Shown: positions 43,242 to 47,420, numbered from the stretch's first letter. The stretch: DNA of 55,765 nt from Deltaproteobacteria bacterium (GCA_019313505.1 JAFDBA010000001.1:1-55765); one strand, 5' to 3'. A program made the numbers and translations. Notes: generated by a model not told the origin, from the sequence alone.

Positions 43242-46200
43242 TTAGGCTTCTTTTACCCTTATTAAGTCTTGATAAACCGACCCTTCGCGACCATCAATAC
43301 TTATGTGGTCTCCGGATTTAAAAACCATTTCATTAAATCGACAGCTTTTATCTTTTTCCCTGCAGACAAGGTTGCCGCATCCGACAATGCAAGTTTTGCC
43401 GAGTCTGTGAGCAACAACGGCTGCATGGGAAGTTACTCCGCCACGGGCTGTAAGAAGGCCGTCCGCAGCATATATTTCCCTGATATCATCAGGAACGGTA
43501 TCATTCCTTACCAGAATTAAATATGTTTCGGGCTCCATGGTTCTCCATTGGTCGATTTCTTCCAGATCAAAAATGATCCTCCCGCTCATTGCTCCGCCGC
43601 TGACCCCAATACCATGCCCCACTAACTTATTCTCCGTACGATCTCCAAGGTCAAAAGTTGAAACTTTCTTTCTTTCTCGAATGGCCATATCCCGGCACTG
43701 GAGCAGATACAAATTTTTAGCACTGGAACTTTCAAAAGTGAACTCCATTTCCTGGGGGCTCCATCCCTTTATGTGAATCAACTCATTCGCCCATCCTTTC
43801 AAGGCGTTATAAATTTCAGGGAAATGAGTTTCAAGGGTTATATCGGTTTCTTTCATTTCGATATCCTGCTGTATAATCGATATCGGCAATGTATTAACAA
43901 GACCAGAGGCCACATCTTCACCCTGATTCCCGATAGTAAAATCACCCCAAAGTCTCAAACTGTCTTCCGACCATCTGGGATTATGAGTAAAGATGATACC
44001 GGCGCCTGATTGTCTGGAAATGTTTCCATAAACCATTCCTTGAATGGTAGCGGCCGTGCCCCAGTCATTGGATATTCCCATGATCTTACGGTAGGCTCTT
44101 GCTTTGGAAGATTCCCATGAGCCGAAAACCTTTTTAATCGTTAAGTAAAGCTGTTCAAAAGGATCATCAATAATATCAATCTCTGAATTCTTTATCATAC
44201 TTTTGTAAGTCATTGCCACTTTTCGCATCTGCATACCGGCAAATTCTCTTTTAAACCCGATACCCGCTCTTCGTTTCATTTCGCTGATAATGGCATCAAA
44301 ATCATCCCGTTCCAGACCAAAAATCATGCCATAACCTTGCAGAAACCGGCGATAACAATCCCAGGCAAACCAGGCATTACCGGTACGCTTTTCAATGCCG
44401 AGTGCAATTTCTTCATTCATCCCAACATTAAGTAAAGTATCCATCATTCCGGGTTGTGAAATGGAGGATCCGCTTCTTACGGAAAAGAGAAGAGGATTTT
44501 CTGGATTGCCAAAGGTCTTGCCGGTCTCCTTTTCAATATCAGCGATATGCTTCCCCAATTGTTCCTTGAAATTCTGTTTCGCCGGCGAATAATTGTCTAT
44601 TATTTCTCTACAGCGGAATGATTCCGTTGTTATGATAAAACCCGGCGGTACCGGCCAGCCGTAATTTTTTAGCCTGACCAGGTTCAACCCTTTGTTGCCC
44701 AGATTAATAATTCCGGAAACCCGCTTAGGAACGTTGTTGATAGACGTCATCGCCTTTTCAGGATCATAAAGGAGAAGTTGTTGGAGTTGATTCTCTGGCA
44801 GTTTATTCGATTGCTGAAACAGGGTGTTTAAAATTCGGCTTAAAAACAGATCCAACTGCCGGAGTCCTAACGAAAAGGCTATCCGTTCTCGAAAGAAAAT
44901 TTCCGAGACCCTGTGTTTTATCCCTTCGTTGTCTATTTTACCGTTATAGGGAATGTATTTCGGCAGGATCTGATCAACAGGTATCTGAGACAGAACCTGG
45001 TTTAGATTTTCTCCATGAATATTATTGAAATAATCATTAATGATATTCCTTACAGCCCGGGCGAATCCTTTAAAAATATCAAGGTACTGGGTAAAAGTAA
45101 ATCCTCTGGCTTCAAGTGAATGGGATAACATGTCAAGCTGACTTTCGATTTCTACTGATGATATTCCATCGAGCGTTAACGCTTTTAAAAACAATTTTAA
45201 TCGATTGTAGATCTGAAAAAAGGTGGCTTTTGTTATCAGGTTGAGATCAATATCTTCGACAAGTTCTTCAAAAAAAACATTGACCAGAGATTCTATCCGA
45301 AAAGTAAGTCCAAAGGCGTCAAATTTCATTTCGCGATAACTGCCGTACATGGAAGGGATATCTATGGTAATATGTCTTTTCTTATAAATGTCCTCCTTTA
45401 TTTCATATATCTGATCGGAAAGTATTATTTTTTTCAACTCTTCCAGACAATCGAGAAGCCCGTAAATCTTTTTATTTAAATCAGGCTCTGCCAGAGCTTT
45501 TTGCAGCCTTTCCAAATCAGGAAAGGCTTCCGACCTGAGTTGAGCAAGATAATTTTCCATTTCGATAAAATCGAGGTTGTATTTCTGGTTTAAAAGTTTG
45601 TAAAAGGTTATGGCAAGTTCCACCCTCCTCGAATCTTGCTCCGATACGCCGGACGCCCCGTCAATAAGACGCTTCATTTCATTTTCTTTAATTGTAATAA
45701 GTCCCTCGGGTAAAGAGACCCCCTCTTCTTTAAGATATGAAATTACCCTGTGAACACCATCTATGTGTGGACCATGAGTATCGATTTCTTCATAAATATC
45801 TGGTGGAACAAAAGGTTCCAAAGGAACTTTTTCTTTGGTTTTCCAGAAATTAAATATTTCTTTCATAAAATCCATGATCCGGTTACTGCTTTCCACATGG
45901 CTCTGCTTGCGCAAAAAATGTATAAGCGTGTCTCTTCGATGGGATATTTCATCAATTTCTGTTGATATATCCCTTAACTTCCCTTCGGCACCGATATCGT
46001 TAAAAAATACCGGGAAAAGTCGGCAAAGCTGCTTGGCCAGGTTATAGACAGGGTCGATGCCGCTGTTTAATAACCGGGTAATATCCCGGGGGAAAAGGTC
46101 TATATCTTTAATAAATACCCCGCAGACGGAAAGATGGATGATAAGGTATGAAAAAAGCCGGGTTGACCACATGGGATTCAGCTCAATCAGCTCAAGCCAT

Positions 46201-47420
46201 GTCCTTATATTTAAAATGTGGGCGGTATTAAACTCTATTTGCCAGTTGTTCCCGACACCTTTAATCATGGGTGACTGAAAGCCTAAATCGATTACATAAT
46301 CGATAAAAAATTTTACAAGGTCGCTGTCATCGGTTTTATAAACACCTTTCCCCATATTCAAAATACAGTTCAATGCGGTTGCAGGGTATTTACCGGCTCT
46401 GGTCTTTAGTATGGGAAAGGTTTTATGAATCAGGCTTCCGATATTCAGATTGCTCTCATGGGCAATGAGCCAGCTCAATGTTCTGTTTATGTCCCGTAGA
46501 GTTTCCTCATGGATCATCGACAGTCCGGAAATATTCATTATGTGGAAAAGAGAAATAAGCTTCCACCGGTTACCCGGAACGGTTTTAGTGCTTTCATCCA
46601 GGAGACTCTGAGGCATTTTCCGGTATGTTTCTACAAACTGGTCGTAACCAGGGAGCATTAATAGCCTTTTCAGAACATCTTCGGATTCAAGGTTTTTAGG
46701 CTGAGCGATCTTTGCAAGTCTACTTTTATACCGGTTGATCTGTTTATGGGATATGATTTGAAAAAAATTCTTCAAATTTTCCCGGTTATCAATTTTATCA
46801 GCCTCTTTTTCAAACCAGGTCCACGGATCTTTTTCAGACAGCCAGTAACTATAAATACGCTCATAGTATTTTATGAGAAGCAGATTGACGGCATTACAAT
46901 CTTCTTCAATTTCAGATGAATAATTTAAAAGCGCATCCGCCAGTTTCCTTATCTGATAGAAACTTTTAACAAACAAAAAGAAATTCTCCCCATCATACGC
47001 TCTAATACTATTAAATGAGTCATCGATCACCGGTTTGAATCTTGTGAAGTCGGAGCCAGATTCCTTTATGATTTTTTGAATAAAAAGGAGAAAGTTGTCC
47101 ACGGCATCAGCCCTGACCTCGATATCGCTTTTTGATTCAATTGCGCGCATAAAAATATCGACTAAAAGTTCTGTGGCTTCAGGTCCTTTTGGGTGGCTTT
47201 TTAAAAGATGAAAATAATCGAGGGAATAAACTCTCGCTTCATTAACAATAAATTTCCAATTTTTATAAGGATGCGAGAGTTCTTTCAGCAGGGTGTTCAA
47301 TCCTTCCAAGATCCCGTAATATTTAGACATTATCTCTTGCAGAATTGAATATTTTTCATCGATGGCGACATCGACATGGTAGTCTGCTATATTCACCTCA
47401 AGTGCTTTTGATTGTATCAT
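43242..47420 (-). CDS. 1392-aa protein: about 900 aa of unrecognised N-terminal region, then PPDK-type ATP-grasp nucleotide-binding domain, then phosphohistidine swivel domain; no PEP/pyruvate TIM barrel
   Basis: The last roughly 485 aa align by eye with the N-terminal two-thirds of pyruvate phosphate dikinase. Matching segments are GNKGLNLVRLKNYGWPVPPGFIITTE, FGNPENPLLFSVRSGSSISQPGMMDTLLNVG, TGNAWFAWDCYRRF, DWGTAATIQGMVYGN, GEDVASGLVNT and QEMEFTFE. The swivel motif LTARGGVTSHAAVVAHRLGKTCIVGC follows. The ORF ends about 60 aa after that His. Confidence 0.8.
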   Translation of the reverse strand: MIQSKALEVNIADYHVDVAIDEKYSILQEIMSKYYGILEGLNTLLKELSHPYKNWKFIVNEARVYSLDYFHLLKSHPKGPEATELLVDIFMRAIESKSDIEVRADAVDNFLLFIQKIIKESGSDFTRFKPVIDDSFNSIRAYDGENFFLFVKSFYQIRKLADALLNYSSEIEEDCNAVNLLLIKYYERIYSYWLSEKDPWTWFEKEADKIDNRENLKNFFQIISHKQINRYKSRLAKIAQPKNLESEDVLKRLLMLPGYDQFVETYRKMPQSLLDESTKTVPGNRWKLISLFHIMNISGLSMIHEETLRDINRTLSWLIAHESNLNIGSLIHKTFPILKTRAGKYPATALNCILNMGKGVYKTDDSDLVKFFIDYVIDLGFQSPMIKGVGNNWQIEFNTAHILNIRTWLELIELNPMWSTRLFSYLIIHLSVCGVFIKDIDLFPRDITRLLNSGIDPVYNLAKQLCRLFPVFFNDIGAEGKLRDISTEIDEISHRRDTLIHFLRKQSHVESSNRIMDFMKEIFNFWKTKEKVPLEPFVPPDIYEEIDTHGPHIDGVHRVISYLKEEGVSLPEGLITIKENEMKRLIDGASGVSEQDSRRVELAITFYKLLNQKYNLDFIEMENYLAQLRSEAFPDLERLQKALAEPDLNKKIYGLLDCLEELKKIILSDQIYEIKEDIYKKRHITIDIPSMYGSYREMKFDAFGLTFRIESLVNVFFEELVEDIDLNLITKATFFQIYNRLKLFLKALTLDGISSVEIESQLDMLSHSLEARGFTFTQYLDIFKGFARAVRNIINDYFNNIHGENLNQVLSQIPVDQILPKYIPYNGKIDNEGIKHRVSEIFFRERIAFSLGLRQLDLFLSRILNTLFQQSNKLPENQLQQLLLYDPEKAMTSINNVPKRVSGIINLGNKGLNLVRLKNYGWPVPPGFIITTESFRCREIIDNYSPAKQNFKEQLGKHIADIEKETGKTFGNPENPLLFSVRSGSSISQPGMMDTLLNVGMNEEIALGIEKRTGNAWFAWDCYRRFLQGYGMIFGLERDDFDAIISEMKRRAGIGFKREFAGMQMRKVAMTYKSMIKNSEIDIIDDPFEQLYLTIKKVFGSWESSKARAYRKIMGISNDWGTAATIQGMVYGNISRQSGAGIIFTHNPRWSEDSLRLWGDFTIGNQGEDVASGLVNTLPISIIQQDIEMKETDITLETHFPEIYNALKGWANELIHIKGWSPQEMEFTFESSSAKNLYLLQCRDMAIRERKKVSTFDLGDRTENKLVGHGIGVSGGAMSGRIIFDLEEIDQWRTMEPETYLILVRNDTVPDDIREIYAADGLLTARGGVTSHAAVVAHRLGKTCIVGCGNLVCREKDKSCRFNEMVFKSGDHISIDGREGSVYQDLIRVKEA

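What the first reader, a model, noticed from the sequence alone, without database searches (positions are those of the whole stretch)
43242..47420. Giant 'headless' dikinase: unknown 900-aa module fused to PPDK ATP-grasp and phospho-His swivel domains, without a pyruvate/PEP barrel
Seen: the C-terminal 485 aa or so are clearly PPDK-like, from the ATP-grasp start (GNKGLNL..PVPPGF) to the swivel His motif GGVTSHAAVVAH. The ORF terminates about 60 aa after that His. This is where PPDK and PEP synthase continue into the TIM-barrel domain that binds pyruvate/PEP. No such barrel is encoded by the neighbouring genes. The first 900 aa or so are helix-rich and Lys/Glu/Ile/Leu/Phe-rich, and contain no motif I recognise.

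Established: ATP-grasp plus swivel-His modules can be re-targeted to other acceptors; rifampicin phosphotransferase and phenylphosphate synthase are examples.

Inference: this is an ATP-dependent phosphotransferase whose acceptor is defined by the novel N-terminal module. The gene is markedly AT-rich; hand counts of single 60-nt lines give 17/60, 23/60 and 24/60 G+C. It has its own flanking repeat arrays and sits between the acs operon and glycolytic/gluconeogenic paralogues.
Basis: partly seen in the sequence, partly recalled or inferred. Interest (0 to 1): 0.65.

Follow-up and report, generated by a model that had tools for sequence, protein, structure and literature searches.

The report
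Barrel-less giant dikinase paired with GAPDH
This 1392-residue protein joins the ATP-binding and phospho-histidine parts of pyruvate phosphate dikinase to a 900-residue helical module of unknown fold, and across several bacterial phyla its gene is almost always followed by an unusual long glyceraldehyde-3-phosphate dehydrogenase gene, which points to an undescribed enzyme pair in central carbon metabolism.

Summary
ORF 43242-47420 (-) encodes 1392 aa. Residues 907-1392 align to PPDK residues 18-514, covering the ATP-grasp and the swivel domain with His1332. The protein stops exactly 60 aa after that His, and no PEP/pyruvate barrel is encoded anywhere in the window.

It is not a truncation. More than 120 full-length relatives at 65-100% identity, 606 clusters at 50% identity and at least 492 species genomes share the architecture.

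The N-module gave confident AlphaFold models (pLDDT 88-90, pTM 0.82-0.90). It is all-alpha with a single beta-hairpin. It has no Pfam family and no Foldseek neighbour in the PDB. About 15-20 charged or polar residues are invariant down to 27% identity, which looks like an active site.

The new finding is the partner gene. In 53 of 54 loci with room downstream, and in Actinobacteria and other remote lineages, the next gene is a long (402-422 aa) phosphorylating-type GAPDH, sometimes overlapping the stop codon by 4 nt.

My best reading is a dikinase that moves phosphate from ATP through His1332 to a small anionic metabolite at the GAPDH step, most plausibly 3-phosphoglycerate/1,3-bisphosphoglycerate. 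The acceptor is inferred, not shown. A VadK-like regulatory kinase is the main rival.

The AT-richness is modest, and the flanking heptad repeats are real but not exclusive to this gene.

The parts
43242..47420 (-). Whole ORF of 1392 aa: the giant dikinase that lacks a PEP/pyruvate barrel
   Evidence: More than 120 full-length relatives (1390-1420 aa) at 65-100% identity.
46371..47420 (-). aa 1-350: helical 'arm' that conserves poorly, apart from a conserved N-terminal motif LxELxHPYxNW (E47, H50)
   Evidence: Column identity is 0.29-0.45. The region is helical in the model. It is shortened or diverged in remote relatives, whose matches start at about aa 290-340.
44706..46370 (-). aa 351-905: conserved core of the new N-module. 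It is all-alpha plus one beta-hairpin (aa 675-696) and carries the invariant polar cluster: H401, D439, D441, E479, R483, D490, D497, H501, R504, K505, H508, K613, Y614, K681, R682, H683, S690, G693, R844, D857.
   Evidence: Invariance across 47 to 56 sequences, down to 27% identity. AF2 pLDDT 90.5, pTM 0.90. No PDB or BFVD neighbour. No Pfam family.
43662..44705 (-). aa 906-1253: PPDK-type ATP-grasp nucleotide-binding domain
   Evidence: PF01326 and TIGR01828 positions 18-335. Aligns to PDB PPDK residues 18-344. K910, R982, E1224, E1226, Q1241 and R1243 are conserved.
43266..43628 (-). aa 1265-1385: swivel phospho-histidine domain (PEP-utilizers mobile domain)
   Evidence: PF00391. Matches the isolated PPDK central domain 2fm4 over residues 7-125.
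43425..43427 (-). Codon of His1332, the predicted phospho-carrier in GGVTSHAAVVA
   Evidence: His in 46 of 47 family members.
41866..43122 (-). Partner gene: long-type (418 aa) phosphorylating GAPDH. It keeps the catalytic Cys (SNASCTTTC), the His (TVHA) and the Arg of SVRIP, and has family-specific insertions.
   Evidence: It follows the dikinase in 53 of 54 loci with room and in remote lineages. The insertions are shared across phyla at about 50% identity.
43123..43241 (-). 119-nt spacer between the dikinase and the GAPDH gene. It carries heptad repeats, and no terminator is predicted in it.
47421..47716 (-). 296-nt region upstream of the dikinase. It holds the acsE terminator hairpin (47661-47692) and two inverted ATTGAAG heptad arrays (47618-47666 and 47436-47483) that can pair to form a structured leader.
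   Evidence: Folds at -68 kcal/mol, z = -4.0. No Rfam family.

Best explanation
The gene encodes one half of a conserved two-gene module: a giant dikinase plus a long-type GAPDH.

**Shown by sequence and models**
- The C-terminal 490 aa are an intact PPDK-type ATP-grasp and a swivel domain with His1332.
- The PEP/pyruvate barrel is absent.
- In its place, at the N-terminus, sits a 900-aa all-alpha module of unknown fold. Its conserved core (aa 351-905) carries about 20 invariant Asp/Glu/Arg/Lys/His/Ser/Tyr residues.
- A long GAPDH gene almost always follows.

**Inferred**
- As in PPDK, rifampicin phosphotransferase and HpeHI, ATP (probably with Pi, giving AMP + PPi) phosphorylates His1332 at the ATP-grasp site.
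- The C-terminally tethered swivel domain then carries the phosphate to the invariant site in the N-module.
- There the phosphate passes to a small anionic metabolite.

**Most speculative step**
- Because the only conserved partner is a phosphorylating GAPDH that keeps its catalytic Cys and His and its phosphate-site residues, the acceptor is most likely the carboxylate of 3-phosphoglycerate, giving 1,3-bisphosphoglycerate for reduction by the partner.
- This would be an AMP-forming bypass of phosphoglycerate kinase. Run in reverse, it would make ATP from AMP + PPi + 1,3-BPG.
- The logic is that of known kinase / acyl-phosphate-reductase pairs (PGK-GAPDH, ProB-ProA, ArgB-ArgC). The chemistry is that of succinyl-CoA synthetase, where a swinging phospho-His exchanges phosphate with an acyl phosphate next to an ATP-grasp domain.

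**My confidence by layer**
- A real, functional dikinase-derived protein with a new N-module: about 0.95.
- Functionally coupled to the partner GAPDH: about 0.8.
- The N-module is a small-molecule phosphoryl-acceptor site: about 0.55.
- The acceptor is 3-PG/1,3-BPG: about 0.3-0.35.
For: **Architecture**
- PPDK_N and PEP-utilizers are present with no barrel.
- aa 907-1392 align to PPDK residues 18-514.
- The match to PPDK (293 bits) is far stronger than to PEP synthase (69 bits), which suggests the Pi/PPi-type partial reaction.

**Conservation**
- The ATP-site residues and the TSH motif are conserved.
- The N-module has invariant polar residues at 47/47 or 46/47 sequences, including H501-x2-R504-K505-x2-H508 on one helix face and KRH...IPSxYGxY on the single hairpin.
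- The N-module is always fused to the roughly 490-aa PPDK part. All 46 full-length representatives are 1335-1540 aa.

**Structure**
- The models are confident.

**Pairing**
- The GAPDH gene is at +1 in 53 of 54 loci.
- The pairing holds in relatives at 27-29% identity from other phyla, with a 4-nt stop/start overlap in two of them.
- The partner GAPDHs form their own long subfamily with shared insertions.
- They keep the catalytic Cys and His and the Arg and Thr phosphate-site residues.
- The best PDB match of the partner is a 'GAPDH 2' entry.
- No terminator is predicted between the two genes.

**Precedents**
- Re-targeted swivel-His dikinases: RPH and HpeHI.
- The succinyl-CoA synthetase and kinase/reductase-pair precedents rest on my own knowledge.
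Against: - No biochemical evidence exists for any member of the family.
- I could not obtain model coordinates or a model of the complex, so it is untested whether His1332 can reach the invariant cluster or whether those residues cluster in 3D.
- One hemerythrin-fused lineage (P0157) keeps every N-module invariant but has Tyr in place of the swivel His and is not next to a GAPDH. The N-module site may therefore have a role that does not depend on the phospho-His relay.
- These organisms probably also have an ordinary phosphoglycerate kinase. I could not check this, and the need for a bypass is unproven.
- The closest characterised barrel-less PPDK, VadK, is proposed to be a regulatory kinase that binds metabolic enzymes, not a small-molecule kinase.
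Confidence: 0.4

Rival explanations
1. Regulatory, protein-directed kinase, like VadK. The ATP-grasp and His module autophosphorylates. The large helical N-module acts as a docking scaffold for the partner GAPDH, or for a GAPDH-containing complex, and GAPDH activity is tuned by binding or by phosphotransfer to the protein.
For: - VadK (Rv1127c) is a PPDK without the barrel. It autophosphorylates on His422 and pulls down methylcitrate-cycle enzymes.
- The first 350 aa resemble an alpha-solenoid, a typical protein-binding shape.
- The partner GAPDH has family-specific insertions that could serve as docking sites.
- Some relatives carry an N-terminal hemerythrin sensor domain, which fits a regulatory role.
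Against: - About 20 invariant charged or polar residues held across 27% identity look like a catalytic or ligand site rather than a docking surface.
- The solenoid-like arm is the least conserved part and is shortened in some relatives.
- The score against the VadK-type NCBIfam model is below its cut-off.
Confidence: 0.2
2. The N-module is an autonomous enzyme or ligand-binding domain acting on some other substrate, for example polyphosphate, a glycan, another triose or tetrose acid, or a step missing from gluconeogenesis. The dikinase part either supplies phosphate to that substrate or merely regulates it. In this reading the link to GAPDH is metabolic rather than direct.
For: - The hemerythrin-fused P0157 lineage keeps all N-module invariants but has lost the swivel His and the GAPDH neighbour.
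- There is no structural or sequence neighbour that would constrain the chemistry.
- Dikinases are known to phosphorylate very diverse acceptors.
Against: - Across the family, only the GAPDH gene is a conserved neighbour. No gene of any other pathway is conserved beside it.
- Stop/start overlap with the GAPDH gene in two phyla suggests stoichiometric co-production.
Confidence: 0.25
3. A functional pyruvate, phosphate dikinase (or PEP synthase) in which a non-homologous helical domain has replaced the TIM-barrel pyruvate/PEP site. It would be placed next to gluconeogenic genes downstream of the acetyl-CoA pathway.
For: - The C-terminal part is closest to true PPDK.
- The acs operon lies upstream in about a third of the loci.
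- The databases already call it PPDK.
Against: - No barrel exists and there is no similarity to any PEP-binding fold.
- At least one relative's genus is reported to have several other annotated PPDK and PEP synthase genes.
- The conserved partner is GAPDH, not enolase or pyruvate synthase.
- The protein scores far below the PPDK equivalog cut-off, 390 against 843 bits.
Confidence: 0.1
4. Artefact or decaying gene: a mis-assembled or truncated PPDK fused to unrelated sequence.
For: None beyond the unusual length and the lower GC content.
Against: - The same architecture, ends and neighbour recur in hundreds of independent assemblies and several phyla.
- The N-terminus and the position of the stop are conserved.
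- A contig from another run spans the whole gene.
- The models are confident.
Confidence: 0.01

Closest known systems
Pyruvate, phosphate dikinase (PPDK, EC 2.7.9.1; TIGR01828; PDB 1KBL/1DIK)
   Same: The ATP-grasp nucleotide domain and the swivel domain are homologous. aa 907-1392 align to PPDK residues 18-514, with the GG-x-TSH motif and the ATP-site residues conserved.
   Different: - It has no PEP/pyruvate TIM barrel.
- The non-catalytic-His end of the protein is an unrelated 900-aa helical module placed N-terminal to the ATP-grasp, so the swivel domain is held by a single linker.
- It scores 390 bits against a cut-off of 843.
VadK / Rv1127c-type truncated PPDK (NCBIfam NF004531)
   Same: It is derived from PPDK, lacks the barrel, and keeps the ATP-grasp and the catalytic His. 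VadK autophosphorylates and associates with metabolic enzymes.
   Different: - VadK is only about 490 aa with no extra module. This protein adds 900 aa carrying its own invariant site.
- The partners differ: methylcitrate-cycle enzymes for VadK, GAPDH here.
- It scores 304 bits against a cut-off of 456.
Rifampicin phosphotransferase and the HpeHI / phenylphosphate-synthase type of small-molecule dikinase
   Same: An ATP-grasp plus a C-terminal swivel His shuttles phosphate to a separate, non-barrel acceptor domain. This shows the machinery can be re-targeted.
   Different: - The acceptor domain here is not homologous to theirs. Matches to these families cover only the swivel or ATP-grasp parts and score far below their cut-offs.
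- RPH structures did not appear among the 50 best Foldseek matches listed for either model.
- The domain order differs: acceptor, ATP-grasp, His here, against ATP-grasp, acceptor, His in RPH (RPH order from my own knowledge).
Kinase / acyl-phosphate-reductase pairs (PGK-GAPDH, ProB-ProA, ArgB-ArgC) and succinyl-CoA synthetase (own knowledge)
   Same: A phosphoryl donor enzyme is encoded beside a GAPDH-type acyl-phosphate reductase. In succinyl-CoA synthetase, phospho-His exchanges phosphate with a carboxylate or acyl phosphate next to an ATP-grasp domain.
   Different: No homology to PGK or to those kinases. The parallel is one of logic and chemistry only, and it was not tested here.

Membership tests
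Pyruvate, phosphate dikinase (TIGR01828) | N-terminal ATP-grasp nucleotide-binding domain | tested here: met
   PF01326 at aa 948-1253, and TIGR01828 positions 18-335 at aa 907-1244.
Pyruvate, phosphate dikinase (TIGR01828) | Central swivel domain with the catalytic His in a GGxTSHAA motif | tested here: met
   PF00391 at aa 1302-1380. The motif GGVTSHAAVVA has His1332.
Pyruvate, phosphate dikinase (TIGR01828) | C-terminal PEP/pyruvate-binding TIM barrel (PF02896) | tested here: not met
   The ORF ends at PPDK-equivalent residue 514 or 515. PF02896 is absent from the protein and from every other window ORF scanned. The N-module model has only one beta-hairpin.
Pyruvate, phosphate dikinase (TIGR01828) | Whole-protein score at or above the curated equivalog cut-off | tested here: not met
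   390.3 bits against a cut-off of 843.45.
VadK-type truncated PPDK (NF004531) | A protein of about 490-534 aa made only of the ATP-grasp and His domains, scoring above the model cut-off | tested here: not met
   303.9 bits against a cut-off of 456. The protein also has an extra conserved 900-aa module.
VadK-type truncated PPDK (NF004531) | ATP- and Mg-dependent autophosphorylation on the swivel His | not testable with these tools
   This needs purified protein. The His and the ATP-site residues are conserved.
Rifampicin phosphotransferase / PEP-synthase-like small-molecule dikinases | Homologous acceptor (rifampicin-binding type) domain, and a score above the family cut-offs | tested here: not met
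   NF041857 gives 27.9 bits against a cut-off of 999, and only over the swivel domain. No RPH chain is among the listed Foldseek matches.
Type I phosphorylating GAPDH (TIGR01534), for the partner gene | Catalytic Cys in SCTTNC, the His of TVHA, the Arg and Thr phosphate-site residues, the WYDNE motif, and a score above the cut-off | tested here: inconclusive
   All the motifs are present (SNASCTTTC, TVHA, SVRIP, GWYDNEMGSY). The score is 319.9 against a cut-off of 367.2 because of the insertions. Activity was not tested.

The most novel reading that the evidence does not exclude
The pair would form a previously unknown route at the 3-phosphoglycerate / glyceraldehyde-3-phosphate step of central carbon metabolism. 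A '3-phosphoglycerate, phosphate dikinase' with a new protein fold would make 1,3-bisphosphoglycerate at the cost of ATP going to AMP (or regenerate ATP from AMP + PPi) and hand it to a dedicated GAPDH. It would be present in hundreds of species of sulfate reducers, Nitrospirota, Actinobacteria and others.
Probability: 0.3. Interest if true: 0.85.

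Novelty: new variant of a known kind. Interest (0 to 1): 0.66.

Why it matters
Databases currently label the family 'pyruvate, phosphate dikinase', which it cannot be. That label feeds wrong steps into metabolic reconstructions of marine sulfate reducers, including the partner bacteria of methane- and ethane-oxidising archaea.

The family offers several things worth pursuing:
- a confidently modelled 550-900 aa fold with no solved neighbour;
- a sharply defined putative active site;
- a partner gene that narrows the search for a substrate to a few triose-phosphate metabolites, so the question can be tested directly with two recombinant proteins.

If the acceptor is 3-phosphoglycerate, this would be the first alternative to phosphoglycerate kinase in the gluconeogenic direction. 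If the protein is instead a regulator, it would extend the newly described VadK idea (PPDK-derived histidine kinases that control metabolic enzymes) well beyond mycobacteria.

Tried and rejected
- **Diverged TIM barrel or PEP-carboxylase-like fold for the N-module.** Rejected. The model has about 45 helices and a single hairpin, and no such PDB matches appeared.
- **Profile of the family against PDB sequences.** Only designed helical repeats matched the N part.
- **BFVD viral structures.** No match.
- **Pfam and NCBIfam on the N part.** Only a sub-threshold VMAP-M12 hit (E 0.01) and MnmH noise.
- **Assembly truncation.** Rejected.
- **Horizontal-transfer island inferred from low GC.** Not supported. 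The difference is small, and the gene is syntenic with its GAPDH partner in relatives.
- **An enzyme specific to sulfate reducers that recycles the AMP + PPi of sulfate activation.** Weakened, because the pair also occurs in Thermoleophilia-type Actinobacteria, and a family member (with no downstream sequence on its contig) in Myxococcota.
- **Other conserved neighbours.** Only acs genes (about a third of loci), DUF3786, KsgA and sporadic genes turned up, none of them universal.
- **Rfam on the whole window.** Nothing.
- **Literature.** Searches for this family, for a phosphoglycerate dikinase and for proteomic mentions found nothing specific.
- **Whether carrier genomes lack pgk or a second gap.** Could not be tested.

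Full report
**1. What is in the sequence**

The ORF 43242-47420 on the minus strand starts with ATG and encodes 1392 aa. Pfam finds PPDK_N at aa 948-1253 and the mobile PEP-utilizers domain at aa 1302-1380, and nothing credible in the first 900 residues. NCBIfam's PPDK equivalog matches its positions 18-335 and then the His domain, but at 390 bits against a cut-off of 843.

Against PDB sequences, aa 907-1392 align to Clostridium symbiosum PPDK residues 18-514. That is the nucleotide-binding domain and the central phospho-histidine domain, ending where PPDK's linker to its barrel begins. The motif GGVTSHAAVVA places the carrier His at residue 1332, and exactly 60 residues follow it.

I scanned 35 other ORFs spanning the window. 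None carries the PEP/pyruvate barrel PF02896.

**2. It is a real and widespread family, not a truncation**

- A search of 5.8 billion proteins returned more than 120 full-length relatives (1390-1420 aa) at 65-100% identity. All come from Desulfobacterales-type metagenome bins, including an Eth-SRB2 bin. Their only names are 'pyruvate, phosphate dikinase' or 'PEP/pyruvate-binding domain-containing protein'.
- An exhaustive HMMER search with aa 1-900 alone found 606 clusters at 50% identity, 235 of them below E 1e-30. All 46 full-length hits are 1335-1540 aa, so the N-module is always fused to the roughly 490-aa PPDK part.
- A scan of one genome per species found at least 492 species with a relative.
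- Remote members come from Thermoleophilia-type Actinobacteria (Miltoncostaeaceae), Myxococcota and Nitrospirota.
- In an alignment of 47 full-length sequences the proteins end 39-77 aa after the His, 52-77 in all but one.

**3. The N-module**

*Conservation.* It is uneven.
- aa 51-350 are poorly conserved (0.29-0.37 column identity). Some relatives shorten or diverge here.
- aa 351-550 and 651-800 are as conserved as the ATP-grasp.
- Fifteen polar positions are identical in 47 of 47 sequences: H401, D439, R483, D490, R504, K505, H508, K613, Y614, K681, H683, S690, G693, R844 and D857.
- D441, E479, D497, H501 and R682 are identical in 46 of 47.

*Models.* AlphaFold2 with a 52-56 sequence alignment gave confident models.
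- aa 1-905: pLDDT 87.8, pTM 0.82.
- aa 345-905: pLDDT 90.5, pTM 0.90.

*Fold.* It consists of about 45 helices and a single beta-hairpin (aa 675-696). The hairpin carries the KRH...IPSxYGxY motif. H501, R504, K505 and H508 lie on one face of a helix. There is no eight-stranded barrel, so a diverged PEP/pyruvate domain is excluded.

*Searches for relatives of the fold.*
- Foldseek against 350,542 PDB chains gave only generic HEAT/ARM solenoids for the whole module (best E 1.7e-3, TM at most 0.18).
- It gave nothing for the conserved core (best E 0.15).
- BFVD gave nothing.
- A family profile against PDB sequences matched only designed helical repeats.

No AlphaFold-DB library was available. The claim is therefore 'no solved neighbour', not 'no predicted neighbour'.

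**4. The key new clue is an obligate GAPDH partner**

The next gene downstream (41866-43122, 119-nt spacer, no terminator predicted) is a 418-aa GAPDH.
- It has the catalytic SNASCTTTC Cys, the TVHA His, the SVRIP Arg and the GWYDNE motif.
- It has several insertions relative to ordinary 335-aa enzymes.
- Its best PDB match is a 'GAPDH 2' entry.

Evidence for the pairing:
- tblastn over 83 related loci shows this gene directly after the dikinase in every locus with room. ORF clustering puts it at position +1 in 53 of 54 loci.
- The pairing holds in a 66%-identical marine relative whose upstream genes are quite different (DsrC, H+-PPase).
- It holds in relatives of only 27-29% N-module identity.
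- It holds in an actinobacterial member whose GAPDH start overlaps the dikinase stop by 4 nt.
- It holds in one hemerythrin-fused member.
- Partner GAPDHs from these lineages are about 50% identical and share the same insertions with almost no gaps. They are a dedicated subfamily inherited together with the dikinase.

No other neighbour is conserved. The acs genes lie upstream in about a third of loci, and the rest are DUF3786, KsgA and sporadic genes.

**5. How it most likely works**

*Shown:* an intact PPDK-type ATP site and His carrier; a separate invariant polar site in a new domain; a conserved partner that chemically handles an acyl phosphate.

*Inferred from the dikinase paradigm* (PPDK; rifampicin phosphotransferase and HpeHI): ATP phosphorylates His1332, and the swivel domain carries the phosphate to the N-module site. 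Here the swivel domain is tethered by one linker at the C-terminus. The far stronger similarity to PPDK than to PEP synthase (293 against 69 bits) suggests the Pi-dependent, PPi-forming half-reaction.

*Speculative but specific:* the acceptor is the carboxylate of 3-phosphoglycerate, and the 1,3-bisphosphoglycerate formed is reduced by the partner. This follows the logic of adjacent kinase / acyl-phosphate-reductase pairs (PGK-GAPDH, ProB-ProA, ArgB-ArgC). It also follows the chemistry of succinyl-CoA synthetase, where a mobile phospho-His exchanges phosphate with an acyl phosphate beside an ATP-grasp domain. Both parallels rest on my own knowledge.

The reaction could equally run in the ATP-forming direction from AMP + PPi.

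I put about 0.8 on functional coupling to GAPDH, about 0.55 on a small-molecule acceptor site in the N-module, and about 0.3-0.35 on 3-PG/1,3-BPG specifically.

**6. Rivals and what does not fit**

- *VadK-like regulator.* The closest characterised barrel-less PPDK is VadK (Rv1127c). It autophosphorylates His422, binds methylcitrate-cycle enzymes, and is proposed to be a regulator. A similar regulator of the partner GAPDH is the main rival. The solenoid-like arm, the GAPDH insertions and the hemerythrin-fused relatives fit it. The twenty invariant polar residues fit it poorly.
- *The P0157 lineage.* One hemerythrin-fused cluster (P0157, 7 members) has Tyr instead of the swivel His, is not next to a GAPDH, and still keeps every N-module invariant. 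The N-module site may therefore act or bind a ligand without the relay. This is unexplained.
- *A true PPDK with a non-homologous pyruvate site.* This is unlikely, as argued under the rival explanations.
- *An artefact.* This is excluded.

**7.

- *GC content.* The gene is 40.4% GC (N part 38.7%) against 44.8% for the window, which is modest. It matches the Ile/Lys/Phe/Asn-rich composition and is not a sign of foreign origin.
- *Heptad repeats.* ATTGAAG/CTTCAAT heptads are enriched in spacers (2.6 per kb against 0.55 per kb in coding sequence). Ten of the 18 intergenic copies lie in the two spacers flanking this gene, but copies also sit in the spacers of the downstream Qrc-like operon.
- *Upstream region.* A clear terminator ends acsE at 47661-47692. 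Two inverted heptad arrays can then pair into a 250-nt structured leader (-68 kcal/mol, z = -4.0) that ends just before the start codon. No Rfam family matches it.
- *Variation.* Copy number differs between strains. Relatives carry different 7-nt periodic repeats at the same place.

**8. Expression**

Three marine-sediment metatranscriptome assemblies hold contigs at 92-99% identity to the region.
- Two of them (X25, X26) cover pieces of the dikinase gene at word depth 2-8.
- All three cover pieces of the GAPDH gene at about 0.3-5.
- acsE and cdhD next door reach about 20-60.

These are contigs, DNA carry-over cannot be excluded, and depth is a poor measure. This is therefore weak positive evidence of low-level transcription.

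**9. Verdict**

It is sharpened by the conserved pairing with a dedicated GAPDH.

I rate it a new variant of a known kind of enzyme. It has an uncharacterised fold and a directly testable hypothesis about its substrate.

Noticed in passing
window 47421-47716 and 43123-43241; also 38512, 40834, 30018; loci L005, L010, L014, L022 upstream of their dikinase genes: Seven-nucleotide periodic repeats sit in the spacers. In the window they are ATTGAAG/CTTCAAT, and two inverted arrays can pair into a 250-nt leader (z = -4.0) just before the dikinase start. Copy number varies between strains. Relatives have heptads of a different sequence (CAATCAN, CGCAACN, TGCCTNA) at the same position. No Rfam family matches.
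   Followed up: partly
P0157, P0166 (loci L085, L089): Some family members carry an N-terminal hemerythrin domain. The P0157 cluster has Tyr in place of the swivel His and no GAPDH neighbour, yet keeps every N-module invariant. The C-terminus of P0166 looks frameshifted, and its locus continues into a V-type ATPase operon after the GAPDH gene.
   Followed up: partly
window 36249-41716 (-): A four-gene set encodes a multihaem cytochrome c, a molybdopterin-oxidoreductase-like protein, a 4Fe-4S protein and an NrfD-like membrane protein. Its make-up is that of the Qrc quinone-reductase complex of sulfate reducers. It lies directly downstream of the GAPDH gene and recurs there in a few related loci.
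   Followed up: partly
window 20666-24347 (+), 18551-20236 (-): A second CODH (prismane family) gene is followed by a ferredoxin-like gene and an FAD/NAD oxidoreductase gene, in a stretch of raised GC (0.53-0.59 against a window mean of 0.45). The neighbouring ABC-F gene is the GC peak.
   Followed up: no
window 595-2472 (-), 2984-4012 (+), 34728-36032 (-): The window holds aromatic amino-acid genes: a 625-aa fusion of DAHP synthase, prephenate dehydratase and an ACT domain, plus 3-dehydroquinate synthase and EPSP synthase. These enzymes use PEP and erythrose-4-phosphate. A cofactor-independent phosphoglycerate mutase gene lies at 33145-34713.
   Followed up: no
locus L001 (relative at 66% identity): In this marine relative the dikinase-GAPDH pair sits just after DsrC and a membrane H+-pyrophosphatase gene, and before a CdhD-like gene. 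The PPase neighbour is suggestive for a PPi-forming or PPi-using enzyme, but it was seen in one lineage only.
   Followed up: no
PMC4046663 (Desulfotignum phosphitoxidans genome paper): The authors list two 'PPDK' genes and report that fructose-1,6-bisphosphate aldolase is missing. Desulfotignum bins carry the giant dikinase (L081, L083), so one of those 'PPDK' annotations may be this protein. I did not verify this.
   Followed up: no
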